Below, piece after piece: positions 39,001 through 45,000 of a stretch of DNA of 64,000 bases. Every line of letters starts with the position of its first letter. The stretch's first letter is position 1. Position numbers: made by a program. Origin of the DNA: Longimicrobiales bacterium (GTDB taxonomy: Bacteria; Gemmatimonadota; Gemmatimonadetes; Longimicrobiales; Gaopeijiaceae); NCBI GenBank assembly GCA_965204735.1, contig OZ242008.1, forward strand, positions 640,001 to 704,000, in the 5' to 3' direction.

Positions 39001-42000
39001 GCGGGCAAGGGGGTGGAGAACCCCCGCCTGGACGGGGAGCACATCCTCTCCCACGTCCTCGAGATGGCGCGGCTGGACCTCTACCTCCACTTCGACCGCC
39101 CCCTCTCGCCCGGCGAGCTGGCGGCGTGCCGGACGCTGCTCCGCCGCCGCGGCGCCAGAGAGCCGCTCCAGTACGTGCTGGGCTCGGCGCCGTTCCGCGA
39201 CCTGGAGCTGAAGGTGGGTCCCGGCGTTGCCGTGCCGCGCCCCGAGACCGAGCGCCTTCTGGACGTGCTCCTCGAAACGACCGGCCGCCGACCGGGCCCG
39301 ACTCCCCCGTTCGCCTCGGCCTTGGACGTGGGGACGGGCTCGGGCGCAATCGCCCTGGCGCTGGCGAAGGAAGGGCTGGCGGTCGCCGTGGCGGCCACCG
39401 ACGTGTCGCCCGCGGCCCTGGCGGCCGCCCGGAGCAACGCCGCCGAAGCCGGCGTCCATGTCGACTTCGGGGAGGGCGCGCTGCTCTCGCCGTTCGCCGG
39501 ACGGACGTTCGACCTGATCGTGTCCAACCCGCCGTACCTGACCAGCGACGAGTGGCGGTCGGCGCCCCCGGAGGTGCGCGAATGGGAGCCCCGCGACGCC
39601 ATGGAGGCGGGCGCGGACGGGCTCGACGTGATCCGTCCCCTGGTCCTGGCGGCGATGCCCGCGCTCCGCCCGAACGGGTGGGCCGCGCTGGAGGTGGGCC
39701 GTTTCCAGACCGAGGTCGTGGCCGGCATCTTCCGCGAGGCGGGGGCGGCGGCCGTCGAGGTGCGGGAAGACCTGGCGGGCCTGCCGCGCTATGTTTTCGC
39801 CCGGAAAGCCGAGGCGGCCCGGACGTCCGCGACCGCCCGCGACGCCGGACCGGCCTGCGCCGCCCAAGCGTCCCGCGACCGGTCCCCACACCGAGAGGAG
39901 TCCCCGGTTGGCTGAAATCCACGAGCTGGCCGAGTCCCTGGGACGCGCCCTGGGGCACACCCCCGAGTACCGCACCCTGAAGAGGGCCGCGGAGGCCGCC
40001 GACGAGGACCGGGAGATCGTCGCCCTCAAGAACGAGGCGGCTCGGCTGGAGGCCGCCTTCGAGTCCGCAATGCGCAGAGGCCAGGAGCCCGCCGAAGACG
40101 ACTTGGCCCAGTACGAGTCGGTCGCCTCGCGGCTCCAGGCGTCGTCGGTCTACCAGAGCCTCGTGGCCGCCCAGGCCAACTTCGACCGGGTGATGGCCAA
40201 GGTGGACGAGTCGATCCAGGACGGCATGCGGAGCGGAGCGGCCTCCACCATCATCTTGGCGACTTGAGCGGCTCTCCGGCGGGCGCATCGGGCGTCGGCG
40301 CTCGGGGCGGCTCCCACGCGGACGACCCCCGCGACGGAGCCCCGACCCCGGCGTCGGCCGAGCGGGAACGCGGCCTCAAGGCTCTCCGCCGGCCCGTCTA
40401 CGCAATCATCGAGCCCGTCGTCCGATGGCTGGTCCGCCGCGGGGTCCATCCGAACGCGATCTCGGTGGCAGGGTTCGTCGTCACGGTGGCCGGGGCGTGG
40501 CTCTACTCCCAGGACCACGTGCGCACCGCCGGCTTCTGCATCCTGCTGGGCGGACTGCTGGACATCTTCGACGGGCGCGTGGCGCGGGTGTCCGGCTTGG
40601 CCTCCAAGTTCGGAAGCTTCTTCGACTCGACCCTGGACCGGATCTCCGAGATCGCCATGTACCTGGGGCTCATGACGTTGTACAACAACTACGGCGCCGA
40701 GCTGACCGACCTGCGGATGATCTACGTGATCACCCTCGCCCTCGGCGGCTCCCTCATGGTCAGCTACACCCGGGCCAAGGCCGAGGCGCTGGGCTTCGAC
40801 TGCTCCGTGGGGCTCATGCAGCGGGCCGAGCGCATCGTCCTGCTGGGCCTCGGCTCCCTCGCCTTCGGCCTGGCATGGAGCGGCGCCGTGGTCAGCGGAA
40901 CAATCGTGGTCGTGGCGCTCCTCACCAACGCAACCGCCGTTCAGCGCATGGTCTGGGTGTACAAGCGCGGCTCCGGCGTCCCCCTCGAAAAGGACTAGAA
41001 CGTCCGTGGAACCCACTCCCAGCGTGGCCCCGCCCGAAGGACGCCTCGGGATCCTCCTGCCCGGACTGGGCGCCGTCGCCACCACCTTCGTCGCCGGCGT
41101 CGAGGCGGTCCGCCAAGGGCTCGCCCGCCCCATCGGCAGCCTGAGCCAGATGAACACGATCCGCCTGGGCAAGCGCACCGACGGGCGCACGCCGCTGATC
41201 CGCGAGCTGGTGCCGCTGGCGGAGCTGGACCAGCTGGCCTTCGGCGCGTGGGACCCGATCCCCGCCGACGCCTACGACAGCGCCGTGGAAGCGGGGGTGC
41301 TGGACCGCTCCCGGCACCTGGACCCGATACGGAAGCCCCTCGAGTCGGTCGCGCCCATGCCCGCCGTCTTCGACCCGGCGTACGTGAAGCGGCTGGACGG
41401 CCCCAACAAGAAGCGCGCCGCCGACAAGATGGAGCTGGCCGAAGCGCTCCGCGAGGACATCCGCCGCTTCCGCGCCGAGCACGAATGCGACCGGCTGGCG
41501 ATGATCTGGTGCGGCTCCACCGAGGTCTTCCTGCGTTCGGGGCCGGCCCACGCGACGCCGGAAGCCTTCGAGGACGCTCTGCGGACCAGCGACCCGGCGA
41601 TCGCGCCCAGCATGATCTACGCGTACGCGGCGGTCATGGAGGGCGTCCCCTACGCCAACGGCGCGCCCAACCTCTCCGCCGACGTGCCGGCGCTGGAGGA
41701 GCTTGCCCGCCGGCGGGGCGTCCCCATCGCAGGAAAGGACTTCAAGACCGGCCAGACCCTCATGAAGACGATCCTGGCGCCGGGGCTCAAGGCCCGAATG
41801 CTGGGCGTCTCCGGCTGGTTCAGCACCAACATCCTGGGCAACAGGGACGGCGCGGTCCTCGACGACCCCGACTCCTTCAAGACCAAGGAAGAGTCGAAGC
41901 TGGGCGTTCTGGACTACATCCTGCAACCGTCGATGTACCCGGAGCTCTACGGCGACATCTACCACAAGGTCCGGATCAACTACTACCCTCCCCGGGGCGA

Positions 42001-45000
42001 CGACAAGGAGGGCTGGGACAACCTGGACATCTTCGGATGGATGGGCTACCCGATGCAGATCAAGGTGGACTTCCTCTGTCGGGATTCGATCCTGGCGGCC
42101 CCGATCGTTCTGGACCTGGCGCTCTTCCTGGACTTGGCGGGCCGCGCCGGGCTGGGGGGGATCCAGGAGTGGCTCTCGTTCTACTTCAAGAGTCCCCACT
42201 GTCCCGAAGGACTCTATCCGGAACACGACCTCTTCATCCAGCACTGGAAGCTGAAGAACACCCTCCGGTGGCTGGCCGGCGAGGAGCAGATCACCCACCT
42301 CGGTCGAGAGTACTACGCCGAGTGACCGGGGCGGGCCGCGGCGGGGCGGACCGGGCCGGGACGACCAGGGCCGCGGGGGAGCGGGCCGGGACGACCAGGG
42401 CCGCGACGGGGACGACCGGAACGGGCCGCGGCGGAGCGGGCGTGAGCCGCGACGGCCCGACGGTCGCCGGCCGCGGTCGCTTTCTGGTCGTGGAGGGGGG
42501 CGAGGGCGCCGGCAAGACCACCCAGGCTCGGCGGCTGGCGGCCTTCCTTCGCGAGGGCGGTCTGCGGGTGGTGGAGACGAGGGAGCCGGGAGGCACCCAG
42601 GTCGGCGAAGGGGTCCGGGAGATCCTCCTGAGGAAGCGGACCGACGTTTCCCCCGCCTGCGAGCTGCTGCTGATCCTGGCGGCCAGGGCGGCGTTCGTGC
42701 GCGAAGTCGTGCAGCCGGCCCTGGCGTCGGGAACGTGGGTGGTGTCGGACCGCTTCGAGATGAGCACCTTCGCCTACCAGGGCTACGGGCGCGGAATCCC
42801 GACGCCGCGGATCGAGGCGATGAACCGCTTTGCCACCGACGGGCTGGCGCCGGACCTGTGCTTGGTCCTGGACCTCTCCCCGCAGGAGGGGATCGCCCGC
42901 CACGCCAAGGCGGGGAAGGCCCCGGACCGCTTCGAGTCCGGCGGGTCGGAGTTCCTTCGGCGGGTGGCGGAAGGCTACGCCGAGCTGTCGCGGACGAACA
43001 AGCGGGCCGTTCGCGTCCCTGCCGGCGGCGGAGTGGACGAGGTGGCGCGTCGCGTTCGGCGCGAGGTGGAGGCCCGGTTTCCCGAGGTTGCCGGCCTTCT
43101 CCAGGGCAAGTCGCAACAGTAGATTGACGCCCTCGCGCGCGGTGCGCAGACCGTCTTCCCCGACAGCGTGATCGTGGCCGGCGCTCGACGCCCCCGCGCG
43201 CGGTGCGCAGACGCCCTCGCGCACGGCCCCATGATCGGCGGGACGGCGACTGGAGACCCATGCTGAACCGAAAGCTCGTGTTGGTTCCCGCCCTGGCGCT
43301 GGCGGTTGCGGCGGCCGGCGCGGGCGGATGGCTCCTCCAAAGGGAATCGGCCCGGAGGGCGGAGGAAGGTCTCTCTGCCCGGCTTCTCGACGAGGTGCTG
43401 GCTCGGGTCGGGCGCTTCTACGTCGAGGAAGTGGACCGGGACAGCCTGTACGAAGCGGCCATCGACGCCGTGGTGAAGCAGCTGGGCGACCACAACTCCC
43501 ACTTCCTTCCCGCTGCCGAGTGGGAGGAGGCGCGCATCCGCACCGAGGGCGACTACGGCGGGGTCGGGCTCGAGGTGGTGAACCGGGGTGGGTTCGTGAC
43601 GGTGGTGGCGCCGATTCCGCGCTCGCCGGCCGCCCGGGCCGGAATCCAGGCCGGGGACCGGATCGTGGAGGTGAACGGCGAGTCCGTCGAGGGATGGCTG
43701 ACGGAGTTGGCCGTCCGGATCCTGCGGGGCCGGCCCGGAAGAAAGGTCGAGATCGGCGTGCGCCGGAGGGGCGTCGAGGAGATCATCCGCTTCGAGGTGG
43801 AGCGGGCGGTGATCCAGGTCCCGTCGGTTCCCTTCGCCACGATGCTGGACGACGGCGTCGGATACGTGCCTCTCGAGGGCTTCAACGAGACCAGCACCGC
43901 TGAAGTCCGCTTCGCCGTCGATTCGCTGTCGCAGGAGGGCATGACTTCGCTGATCCTGGACTTGCGGGAGAACGTGGGCGGGCTCCTGGACCAGGGCGTG
44001 GGCGTCTCCGAGTTCTTCCTGGACCCCGGGATGGAGATCGTGACGATCAAGGGTCGGGAGCAGGCGCCCGAGACCTTCGTCGCCGAGTCGCGGCAAGAGT
44101 ATCCCGACTTGCCGCTGGTGGTGCTGGTGGACGACGGGAGCGCGTCGGCGGCGGAGATCGTGGCGGGCGCCCTGCAGGACCACGACCGGGGGCTTGTGCT
44201 GGGCGCGCCGACCTTCGGCAAGGGCTCGGTTCAGACCCTCTTTCGACTCAGCGCGGGGAACGTCCTGCGCCTGACGACGGCGCGGTGGTTCACTCCGGCC
44301 GGCCGGTCGATCCAGAAGGACCCCGCCCGGTCGGCGGAGCTGCGGGACGGGCCGGTGGGCTTCGACGGGGGCCTCGTGGAGCGGCCGGTGGAGTTGACGG
44401 AGAAGCCCCGCTTCTCGTCGGCAGGGGGGCGCGTGGTGTACGGGGGAGGCGGGATCGTGCCGGACTTGTGGGTCGTGCCCGACACCATGACGACGGAGGA
44501 GTACGAGGCAGTGCGACGGCTGCTCGGGGCCGGGGGCGACTTCTCCGCGGCGCTGGCCGTCTGGTCCCTGTCGTACGTTGCCGACCACCCCGAGCTGCAG
44601 CCGGGCTTCCGGATCGGCGAGGCCGACATTCGGGGCTTCCACTCGATGCTCGGCGACGGCGGCTCCGCTTCGGCGCTGGCCCTGGAAGACCTCTTGGCCG
44701 CGCAACGCTTCGTGGACTACTTCCTGGGCGCCGAGATCGCCCGGGACGTCTGGGGCGACCTGGGCGAGTTCCGGCGGGAGGCGGCCGCCGACCTGCCCCT
44801 GCAACGGGCGCTGGAGTTCCTTCGGACCGCCGACGCCCAGGAAGAGCTCTTCGCGCTGGCCGGATCGCCGTTCGGCGCGGCGGGAGAGCTTGCCGAGAAG
44901 CCGGCGACGGGGAGCGACGGGCCCGCAGGGGTCGGCGGGCTGCCGGGCGACGGGGTCCGCTGACCGACGGGCGCGTCCCAAGCGGACATGCAAGCGCCCA

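What a model noticed while it worked through the whole genome (the two positions that open the first line are those of the whole stretch)
39908..42325. An inositol-phospholipid operon is typical of the class Gemmatimonadetes
A phosphatidylinositol-phosphate-synthase homologue and inositol-3-phosphate synthase form an operon with a YlbF-type gene downstream of prfA-prmC. It is conserved across the order and class, predicting inositol lipids in a phylum where they were not reported.
Evidence so far: 42% to Bacteroides BT_1523 and 55% to BT_1526. Inositol synthase domain NAD_binding_5 in 85% of the family and 79% of the class against 11% of bacteria; the two genes are neighbours in 240 of 457 order genomes.
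(Added by a program. Inside this text positions count along the whole contig: contig position 640,001 is position 1 of the stretch shown here. "Call 12" and the like, gene names such as g00115 and contig names such as C1 are that model's own, and its searches are not shown. The text may have been shortened before it was handed on; [...] marks where a part breaks off. The agent that wrote the report below was given it as the finding of a first reader that could run no searches.)

Follow-up and report, generated by a model that had tools for sequence, protein, structure and literature searches.

The report
Inositol-lipid gene pair in Gemmatimonadetes
Two neighbouring genes, one making inositol phosphate and one of the type that attaches it to a membrane lipid, occur in nearly all sampled genomes of this bacterial class, so these bacteria probably make inositol lipids by a known route, although no such lipid has been shown in them.

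Summary
The genes are real: ylbF-like (39908-40267), a CDP-alcohol phosphotransferase (40264-40998) and inositol-3-phosphate synthase, MIPS (41006-42325; 55% to BT_1526). The transferase's best solved matches are PIP synthases, and it keeps their inositol-phosphate pocket. The genome has separate pgsA, pssA and cdsA, and no CDP-inositol, ether-lipid, mycothiol or inositol-ceramide partner was found. Best reading: a two-gene PIP/PI module, a new member of a known kind (0.72). MIPS is in 290 of 301 class genomes and in none of 19 from the phylum's other families. Three corrections. YlbF and prfA-prmC are only neighbours: other families lack that context, and four relatives lost both inositol genes and kept ylbF. 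The pair is not class-wide as an operon: 32 of 78 family genomes keep MIPS but lost the adjacent transferase, and all 32 carry a Tam41-like gene from a second cluster with its own PIP-synthase-like enzyme and an SPT-like enzyme. No PIP phosphatase was found. Two species descriptions list no PI. This scan has already noted both the pair and the second cluster on other DNA; the swap between them was not in the notes I saw.

The parts
37652..38827 (+). prfA, peptide chain release factor 1 (context; start approximate)
   Evidence: PCRF and RF-1 Pfam hits
38824..39915 (+). prmC, release factor glutamine methyltransferase (context; true start may be up to about 150 bases later)
   Evidence: TIGR03534 237.9 bits, cut-off 199.1
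39908..40267 (+). YlbF/YmcA-like small protein; neighbour, not part of the inositol module
   Evidence: PF06133 E 3e-17; below all NCBIfam cut-offs; retained in 4 of 4 family genomes that lost both inositol genes
40264..40998 (+). CDP-alcohol phosphotransferase of the PIP-synthase type (244 aa; one N-terminal helix plus six further long helices in the model)
   Evidence: Best PDB matches are PIP synthases, E 4e-20 to 1e-17; fold TM 0.77-0.86 to PIPS; pocket residues kept
41006..42325 (+). myo-inositol-3-phosphate synthase (MIPS), 439 aa
   Evidence: PF07994 and PF01658; E 8e-159 to 7nwr, 55% identity
42442..43122 (+). tmk, thymidylate kinase (downstream context, followed by an S41 protease, asparaginase II and obgE)
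   Evidence: TIGR00041 155.7 bits, cut-off 83.25; Pfam

Best explanation
A two-gene module for an inositol glycerophospholipid. Step 1 (strongly inferred from 55% identity to an assayed enzyme): MIPS cyclises glucose-6-phosphate to inositol phosphate with NAD+. Step 2 (inferred from family, fold, pocket residues and gene linkage): the membrane enzyme joins inositol phosphate to CDP-diacylglycerol, supplied by the genome's cdsA, giving phosphatidylinositol phosphate (PIP). Step 3 (weakly inferred): an unidentified phosphatase gives PI; PIP could also be the end product. The lipid is probably a minor component. The module sits inside a housekeeping operon (prfA-prmC-ylbF ... tmk-S41) in this order and in families f6 and f7, and elsewhere in other families. 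YlbF has no part in it.
For: Sequence: the top 5 of 7 PDB matches are PIP synthases (E 4e-20 to 1e-17), then AF2299 (1e-7) and IPCT-DIPPS (1e-6). Fold: TM 0.77-0.86 to PIPS, 0.73-0.78 to AF2299/DIPPS, 0.55-0.56 to PgsA. Residues: D68, D71, D89, D93, R94, S132, Y133, R152, R155, R195 (PgsA1 numbering; roles from PMC4634129 and PMC6506517) are all kept; K135R, R137K and P153A are conservative, and R137K and P153A were near-neutral in those papers. The genome's own PgsA and PssA lack the pocket and pass their TIGRFAM cut-offs, so PG and PE are covered; cdsA is present. Linkage: adjacent in 104 of 107 genomes listed in both coordinate tables (biased to the operon type) and in 16 of 20 stretches picked from nine other families plus one own-family genome. 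Co-loss: 8 of the 11 genomes without MIPS also lack the transferase; 4 of these have a clean ylbF-tmk junction. Where the adjacent transferase is lost and MIPS kept, a second PIPS-like enzyme with the same pocket takes its place (32 of 32 carry its Tam41-like partner). No competing inositol-phosphate sink found in G000: MshA best 117 of 462.5 bits; no tblastn hit to a Bacteroides NTP transferase of the CDP-inositol-type cluster.
Against: No chemistry. Gaopeijia maritima TLC lists PE, PG, DPG and an aminolipid (PMC11651109); Gemmatimonas groenlandica lists PE, aminolipid and DPG as dominant (PMC7844134); the G. phototrophica photosystem model has no PI (PMC8849296). I could not confirm that those strains carry the pair. 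The enzyme is below all three NCBIfam PIPS/AIPS cut-offs (154.9/180, 141.2/350, 130.5/170). Archaeal glycerol-phosphate transferases cluster inside the inositol-phosphate group (PMC9385802), so the pocket alone does not fix the acceptor. G015 and G214 keep the orthologous transferase at its usual site with no MIPS found. No PgpA or PAP2 phosphatase in G000.
Confidence: 0.72

Rival explanations
1. PIP/PI is made but is only an intermediate: the end product is a further decorated anchor lipid (glycosylated PI or a lipoglycan anchor), which routine TLC would miss or list as unidentified.
For: No PI among the major lipids of two described species, yet MIPS is kept in 290 of 301 genomes at about 68-88% identity in the listed full-length matches.
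Against: No glycosyltransferase, acyltransferase or GtrA gene turned up beside the pair in the annotated neighbours. PatA and PimA from a Tsukamurella record give only 26-32% hits at unlinked places in G000.
Confidence: 0.13
2. The transferase is a second glycerol-phosphate (or other phospho-polyol) transferase of the archaeal type; its position beside MIPS is historical and MIPS feeds something else.
For: Archaeal G3P transferases group with inositol-phosphate transferases (PMC9385802); the best NCBIfam score is the archaeal model; G015 and G214 keep the transferase without MIPS; automatic JGI labels call relatives PGP synthase.
Against: A separate pgsA passes TIGR00560 (117.2 against 109.1). 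The pair stays adjacent through at least three different genomic settings and is deleted together in four genomes.
Confidence: 0.09
3. The pair makes a soluble inositol phosphodiester (di-myo-inositol phosphate or glycerophospho-inositol) as a compatible solute, or an inositol lipid via CDP-inositol.
For: The fold also matches AF2299 and IPCT-DIPPS (TM 0.73-0.78). Some relatives carry IPCT/DIPPS-like fusions elsewhere (L122, L129).
Against: NF041135 scores only 49 bits against 131-155 for the PIPS-type models. In the tree the enzyme falls with PIPS-type sequences, apart from CDP-inositol-type ones (quick tree). No tblastn hit in G000 for the L122 fusion or a Bacteroides NTP transferase. Of 9 NTP_transf_3 matches in G000 none lies near the pair; three were named as MobA/B, RmlA-like and ManC, and the others were not identified.
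Confidence: 0.05

Closest known systems
Bacteroides thetaiotaomicron inositol-lipid cluster BT_1522-BT_1526 (Heaver et al. 2022, PMC9246714; Sartorio et al. 2022, PMC8791184)
   Same: MIPS 55% identical to BT_1526; a PIPS-type transferase next to it, 36-40% to BT_1523-like proteins of two Bacteroidota records.
   Different: No BT_1525 (PgpA), BT_1524 (GtrA) or BT_1522 (PAP2-type PI-ceramide synthase) homologue found in G000. The BT cluster is patchy and laterally exchanged; here the genes follow the families in the tree and are near-universal in the class.
Actinobacterial PIP synthase (M. tuberculosis PgsA1, R. salmoninarum PIPS; PDB 6h59, 5d92)
   Same: Best sequence and fold matches; catalytic aspartates and inositol-phosphate pocket kept.
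   Different: 27-30% identity in the structural alignments; no pgsA1-patA-pimA operon; MIPS is of the Bacteroides type, not the mycothiol INO1 type (TIGR03450 20.6 of 638 bits); no mycothiol MshA.
Archaetidylinositol phosphate synthase (NF040950)
   Same: Highest NCBIfam score, 154.9 bits.
   Different: Below the 180 cut-off; no GGGP synthase (PcrB) in G000, so no CDP-archaeol donor is indicated.
Caulobacter ceramide-phosphoglycerate genes spt/cpgA-D (PMC12275187), for the second cluster in relatives only
   Same: SPT-like enzyme, a YegS-type lipid kinase and a head-group transferase in one locus.
   Different: The relatives' cluster has a Tam41-like protein, a PlsC-like acyltransferase, an ADC-fold protein and a PIPS-type pocket; sequence homology to the Caulobacter proteins was not tested; the cluster was not found in the window's genome.

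Membership tests
myo-inositol-1(3)-phosphate synthase | NAD_binding_5 plus Inos-1-P_synth domains over full length | tested here: met
   308 and 110 bits against cut-offs 25 and 27
myo-inositol-1(3)-phosphate synthase | Close full-length identity to an assayed member | tested here: met
   236 of 427 columns to 7nwr/BT_1526
myo-inositol-1(3)-phosphate synthase | Glucose-6-phosphate to inositol-phosphate activity | not testable with these tools
   needs an assay
PIP synthase (PIPS) | CDP-AP motif D-x2-D-G-x2-A-R...G-x3-D-x3-D | tested here: met
   complete
PIP synthase (PIPS) | Inositol-phosphate pocket R94, S132, Y133, K135, R137, R152, R155, R195 | tested here: met
   six identical, K135R and R137K; not exclusive to inositol acceptors
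PIP synthase (PIPS) | Fold closer to PIPS than to DIPPS/AF2299 or PgsA | tested here: met
   ranks 1-10 all PIPS; the margin over AF2299/DIPPS is small
PIP synthase (PIPS) | Curated equivalog cut-off (NF045883, NF052561 or NF040950) | tested here: not met
   130.5/170, 141.2/350, 154.9/180; two Gemmatimonadaceae-type orthologues reach 167.6 and 168.5 of 170. Hence filed as PIPS-type, not as a member of a named equivalog.
PIP synthase (PIPS) | CDP-DAG + inositol phosphate gives PIP | not testable with these tools
   needs an assay
B. thetaiotaomicron-type inositol-lipid cluster | MIPS, PIPS, PgpA-type phosphatase and PI-ceramide synthase together | tested here: not met
   PF04608, PF14378 and PF01569 not found in G000; PgpA in 27 of 121 class genomes, only families f4 and f9, beside a pgsA-like gene in the two checked by coordinates
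CDP-inositol route (IPCT/DIPPS; B. vulgatus-type cluster) | Nucleotidyltransferase fused or adjacent; DIPPS-type transferase | tested here: not met
Phosphatidylinositol mannoside (PIM) pathway | patA and pimA linked to the PIP synthase | tested here: not met
   only 26-32% unlinked hits
Archaeal-type ether inositol lipid | GGGP synthase in the genome | tested here: not met
   PF01884 not found in G000, 98% complete
Serine palmitoyltransferase (second cluster, relatives only) | NCBIfam SPT cut-off | tested here: not met
   352/640 (NF047600), 345/500 (NF047599); bioF 381/426. It has a GTFSKS motif, which I recall as SPT-typical; unresolved within the alpha-oxoamine synthase family.

The most novel reading that the evidence does not exclude
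Gemmatimonadetes keep an inositol-phosphate head group on a membrane lipid as a near class-wide trait, and do so by two interchangeable routes fed by one MIPS: the ancestral CDP-DAG route in this window, and a second route (SPT-like enzyme, PlsC-like acyltransferase, YegS-type kinase, Tam41-like cytidylyltransferase, own PIPS-type transferase) that would put inositol phosphate on a CMP-activated ceramide-like lipid without a PI donor. Gain of the second route would have freed the operon transferase to be lost, at least twice in this family.
Probability: 0.3. Interest if true: 0.75.

Novelty: new member of a known kind. Interest (0 to 1): 0.42.

Why it matters
Heaver et al. describe bacterial inositol lipids as rare, previously known mainly from Actinobacteria and Treponema and then shown in gut Bacteroidetes (PMC9246714). 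A whole class of widespread environmental bacteria with a conserved PIP module would widen that picture and weaken PI as an Actinobacteria/eukaryote marker in environmental lipidomics (inference). It is testable now in cultured strains. The missing PIP phosphatase is the same gap as in other PIP-synthase organisms. The swap with the Tam41-like cluster gives genetic-style evidence for what that uncharacterised cluster's transferase accepts.

Tried and rejected
Ether-lipid donor: no PcrB in G000. Inositol-ceramide in G000: no PAP2_3; the only SPT-family match is 235.5 of 640 bits; Tam41-like and SPT-like queries find nothing there. Mycothiol. YlbF as regulator of the module: rejected. Promoter scan 36500-47500: 0 sites; 2 terminator-like sites against 3.6 expected by chance. 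No tRNA in the window. Linking the pair to named cultured strains failed: the genome scan returned one isolate genome among 80 loci, a Bryobacterales; protein searches gave only automatic names; the G. groenlandica supplements had no hit for five terms; the Gemmatirosa plasmid hit is a distant MIPS-like gene, 37.5%. The first transferase tree did not finish its careful search, so only quick trees are cited. One row of the alignment was in the wrong frame and is ignored. Literature: 10 searches. 'Gemmatimonad' + 'inositol' gave 178 papers (30 listed), + 'phosphatidylinositol' 45 (30 listed), + SPT + ceramide 0; no listed title reports inositol lipids in the phylum. The library lacks most subscription papers; the species descriptions of Longimicrobium, Roseisolibacter, Gemmatirosa and G. 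phototrophica and the Morii 2014 PIPS survey were not seen and could change the novelty claim.
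Full report
Observation. The window holds, on the + strand, prfA, prmC, a YlbF-like gene (39908-40267), a CDP-alcohol phosphotransferase (40264-40998), MIPS (41006-42325), tmk, an S41 protease, asparaginase II and obgE. 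Starts overlap or abut the preceding stops and codon bias matches the flanks, so one transcript is likely; no RNA data tested it. The genome is one 4.14 Mb contig, 98% complete. The closest named loci (84-85% MIPS identity) are titled Longimicrobiales.

MIPS. Both Pfam domains pass easily. The best solved relative is 7nwr, E 8e-159, 236 of 427 columns identical by my count. 7NWR is BT_1526, whose activity was assayed (PMC9246714; passages and sections 7 and 10 read).

The transferase. G000 has three CDP-alcohol phosphotransferases: a PgsA and a PssA, each over its TIGRFAM cut-off, and this one. Its best PDB matches are PIP synthases. An AlphaFold model (pLDDT 92.7) ranks PIPS structures first to tenth, TM 0.77-0.86; AF2299 and DIPPS follow at 0.73-0.78 and PgsA at 0.55-0.56. 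The four aspartates and the pocket residues R94, S132, Y133, R152, R155, R195 are kept, with K135R, R137K and P153A (roles from passages of PMC4634129 and PMC6506517). The same six pocket residues are invariant in all MIPS-adjacent orthologues and mostly absent from PgsA and PssA. Two limits apply. The protein is under all three NCBIfam PIPS/AIPS cut-offs. And archaeal glycerol-phosphate transferases belong to the same group (passages of PMC9385802), so linkage to MIPS carries much of the argument. BT_1523 itself could not be fetched; proxies gave 36% and 40%.

Other uses of inositol phosphate in G000. Not found: mycothiol MshA, an IPCT-like nucleotidyltransferase, GGGP synthase, PI-ceramide synthase, linked PatA/PimA. 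Present: cdsA and one inositol monophosphatase-family gene, a family found in all 14 controls. No PgpA or PAP2 was found. Since PgsA also needs a phosphatase, an unrecognised one probably exists (inference).

Distribution. MIPS: 290 of 301 class genomes, 74 of 78 in the family. A PIPS-like match at E 1e-20: 290 of 301. Among 19 genomes of the phylum outside the class, none has this MIPS; 6 have only weak 26-29% partial hits. 'Typical of the class' therefore holds. These tallies include four genomes flagged unpublished (G018, G022, G142, G029); G029 is one of the 8 co-loss cases below. The two genes are adjacent in 104 of 107 genomes listed in both coordinate tables (this set favours the operon type and has none from f5, f8 or f10) and in 16 of 20 stretches that I picked. 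The transferase tree follows the families (quick). The same MIPS subfamily occurs at 64-74% in Acidobacteriota, Latescibacterota, Chloroflexota and others, where 0 of 43 loci have the transferase directly upstream (some flanks are short).

What is not conserved. The prfA-prmC context appears in 18 of the 80 named loci, with ylbF in 17; it covers the own order and f6/f7. Gemmatimonadales-type loci mostly have NamZ and GH3 genes upstream (16 loci), and f4/f9 have thioredoxin. Four family genomes, 97-99% complete, read prfA-prmC-ylbF-tmk-S41 with both inositol genes gone, and no other MIPS was found in the one of them tested. So ylbF is a bystander and the module is dispensable in that lineage. 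Against my reading, G015 and G214 keep the transferase at its usual site with no MIPS found.

The swap. In the family, 41 of 78 genomes have the operon-type enzyme (E below 1e-60), 32 have only a weak match (E 1e-31 to 1e-38) and 5 none. In ten loci MIPS sits at the prfA-prmC site without the transferase. I fetched the weak match from 14 of the 32: it is a separate clade with the same pocket, in most loci behind a PlsC-like acyltransferase and a Tam41-like gene (Pfam E 8e-4, weak), near a YegS-type kinase, an ADC-fold gene and, in 6 of the fetched loci, an SPT/BioF-family enzyme. The Tam41-like gene is in 32 of 32 weak-only genomes, 7 of 41 operon-type genomes and 0 of 5 others. The SPT-like gene is in 38 of the 39 Tam41-positive family genomes and 2 others. 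A MIPS tree needs at least two losses in the family (quick), and G079 in f8 looks like a third. Kin are not independent, so this is two or three events, not 32. It explains why only about half of the order shows the pair as neighbours, and it suggests that both transferases use the MIPS product. The window's genome does not have the second cluster.

Lipid literature. Gaopeijia: PE, PG, DPG, aminolipid, from a chloroform-methanol-water extract stained with phosphomolybdic acid (PMC11651109; passages, section 13 and supplement legends; the plate image was not seen). G. groenlandica: dominant PE, aminolipid, DPG (PMC7844134, passages; TLC image not seen). G. phototrophica photosystem: cardiolipin, PE, PG and glycolipids, head groups assigned from density (PMC8849296, passages). 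PIP is low-yielding in non-acidic extracts, and these lists name major lipids only, so they argue against PI as a major lipid but not against a minor one. Passage searches in two phylum surveys found no 'inositol' (PMC10581226, PMC8779627). Passages of PMC7203096, PMC9969633, PMC8791184 and PMC12275187 were seen; PMC11324152 had no hit for my five terms.

Earlier notes of this scan. The pair (e1-4990592, e1-2128329) and the Tam41/SPT-like cluster (e1-1932360, e1-4282410, e1-7818977, e1-7601997, e1-7737200) were noted on other genomes. I had reached both readings before these look-ups; they are not independent support. The few lines shown do not mention the complementary distribution.

Verdict. 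A real, class-typical PIP/PI module: known chemistry in a lineage where I found no report of it, within the limits of the library. The YlbF part of the claim falls away. Interest 0.42; the bolder reading of two interchangeable routes would deserve 0.75 at a probability near 0.3.

Noticed in passing
L118:1641-7097 (G109); also L114, L115, L116, L119, L127 and L142:7406-12880: Cluster of YegS-type kinase, ADC-fold gene and SPT/BioF-family enzyme divergent from a PlsC-like acyltransferase, Tam41-like gene and PIPS-like transferase; Tam41-like gene in 39 of 78 family genomes and 4 of 28 f8 genomes; not found in G000.
   Followed up: partly
L169-L172 (G105, G147, G144, G061): Clean deletion of both inositol genes between ylbF and tmk.
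   Followed up: yes
L133 (G015), L143 (G214): Orthologous transferase kept beside NamZ and a 2-oxoacid dehydrogenase gene, with no MIPS found in the genome; source of the acceptor unexplained.
   Followed up: partly
G000 whole genome: PgsA present but no PgpA or PAP2-family phosphatase found; PgpA in only 27 of 121 class genomes. The PGP and PIP phosphatases of most of the class are unidentified.
   Followed up: partly
window 27045-37363: Island upstream of prfA: DUF1156 protein (27045-30203), an HNH-like ORF by eye (30502-31650, - strand, no Pfam hit), SDH-type serine protease (32697-33542), a 1188-aa ORF without Pfam hit that looks like a DUF499-type ATPase (33562-37128; label recalled), and a HicB-like gene (37133-37363, - strand). 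Possibly a restriction-like defence island; relatives often have rpmE here.
   Followed up: no
window 42330-42420: Two short GC-rich direct repeats in the 116-base gap between MIPS and tmk (read).
   Followed up: no
L122:16109-17542 (G077), L129 (G255): IPCT/DIPPS-like proteins in some family members, unlinked to MIPS.
   Followed up: no
tree: Two actinobacterial PIPS sequences nest among Gemmatimonadales-type enzymes (SH-aLRT 95-97) on a long branch; quick tree, may be an artefact.
   Followed up: no
L042-L113 (43 loci outside the class or unnamed): The same MIPS subfamily, 64-74% identical, in Acidobacteriota, Latescibacterota and Chloroflexota without an adjacent transferase; nine loci have an NAD-dependent epimerase downstream.
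   Followed up: no
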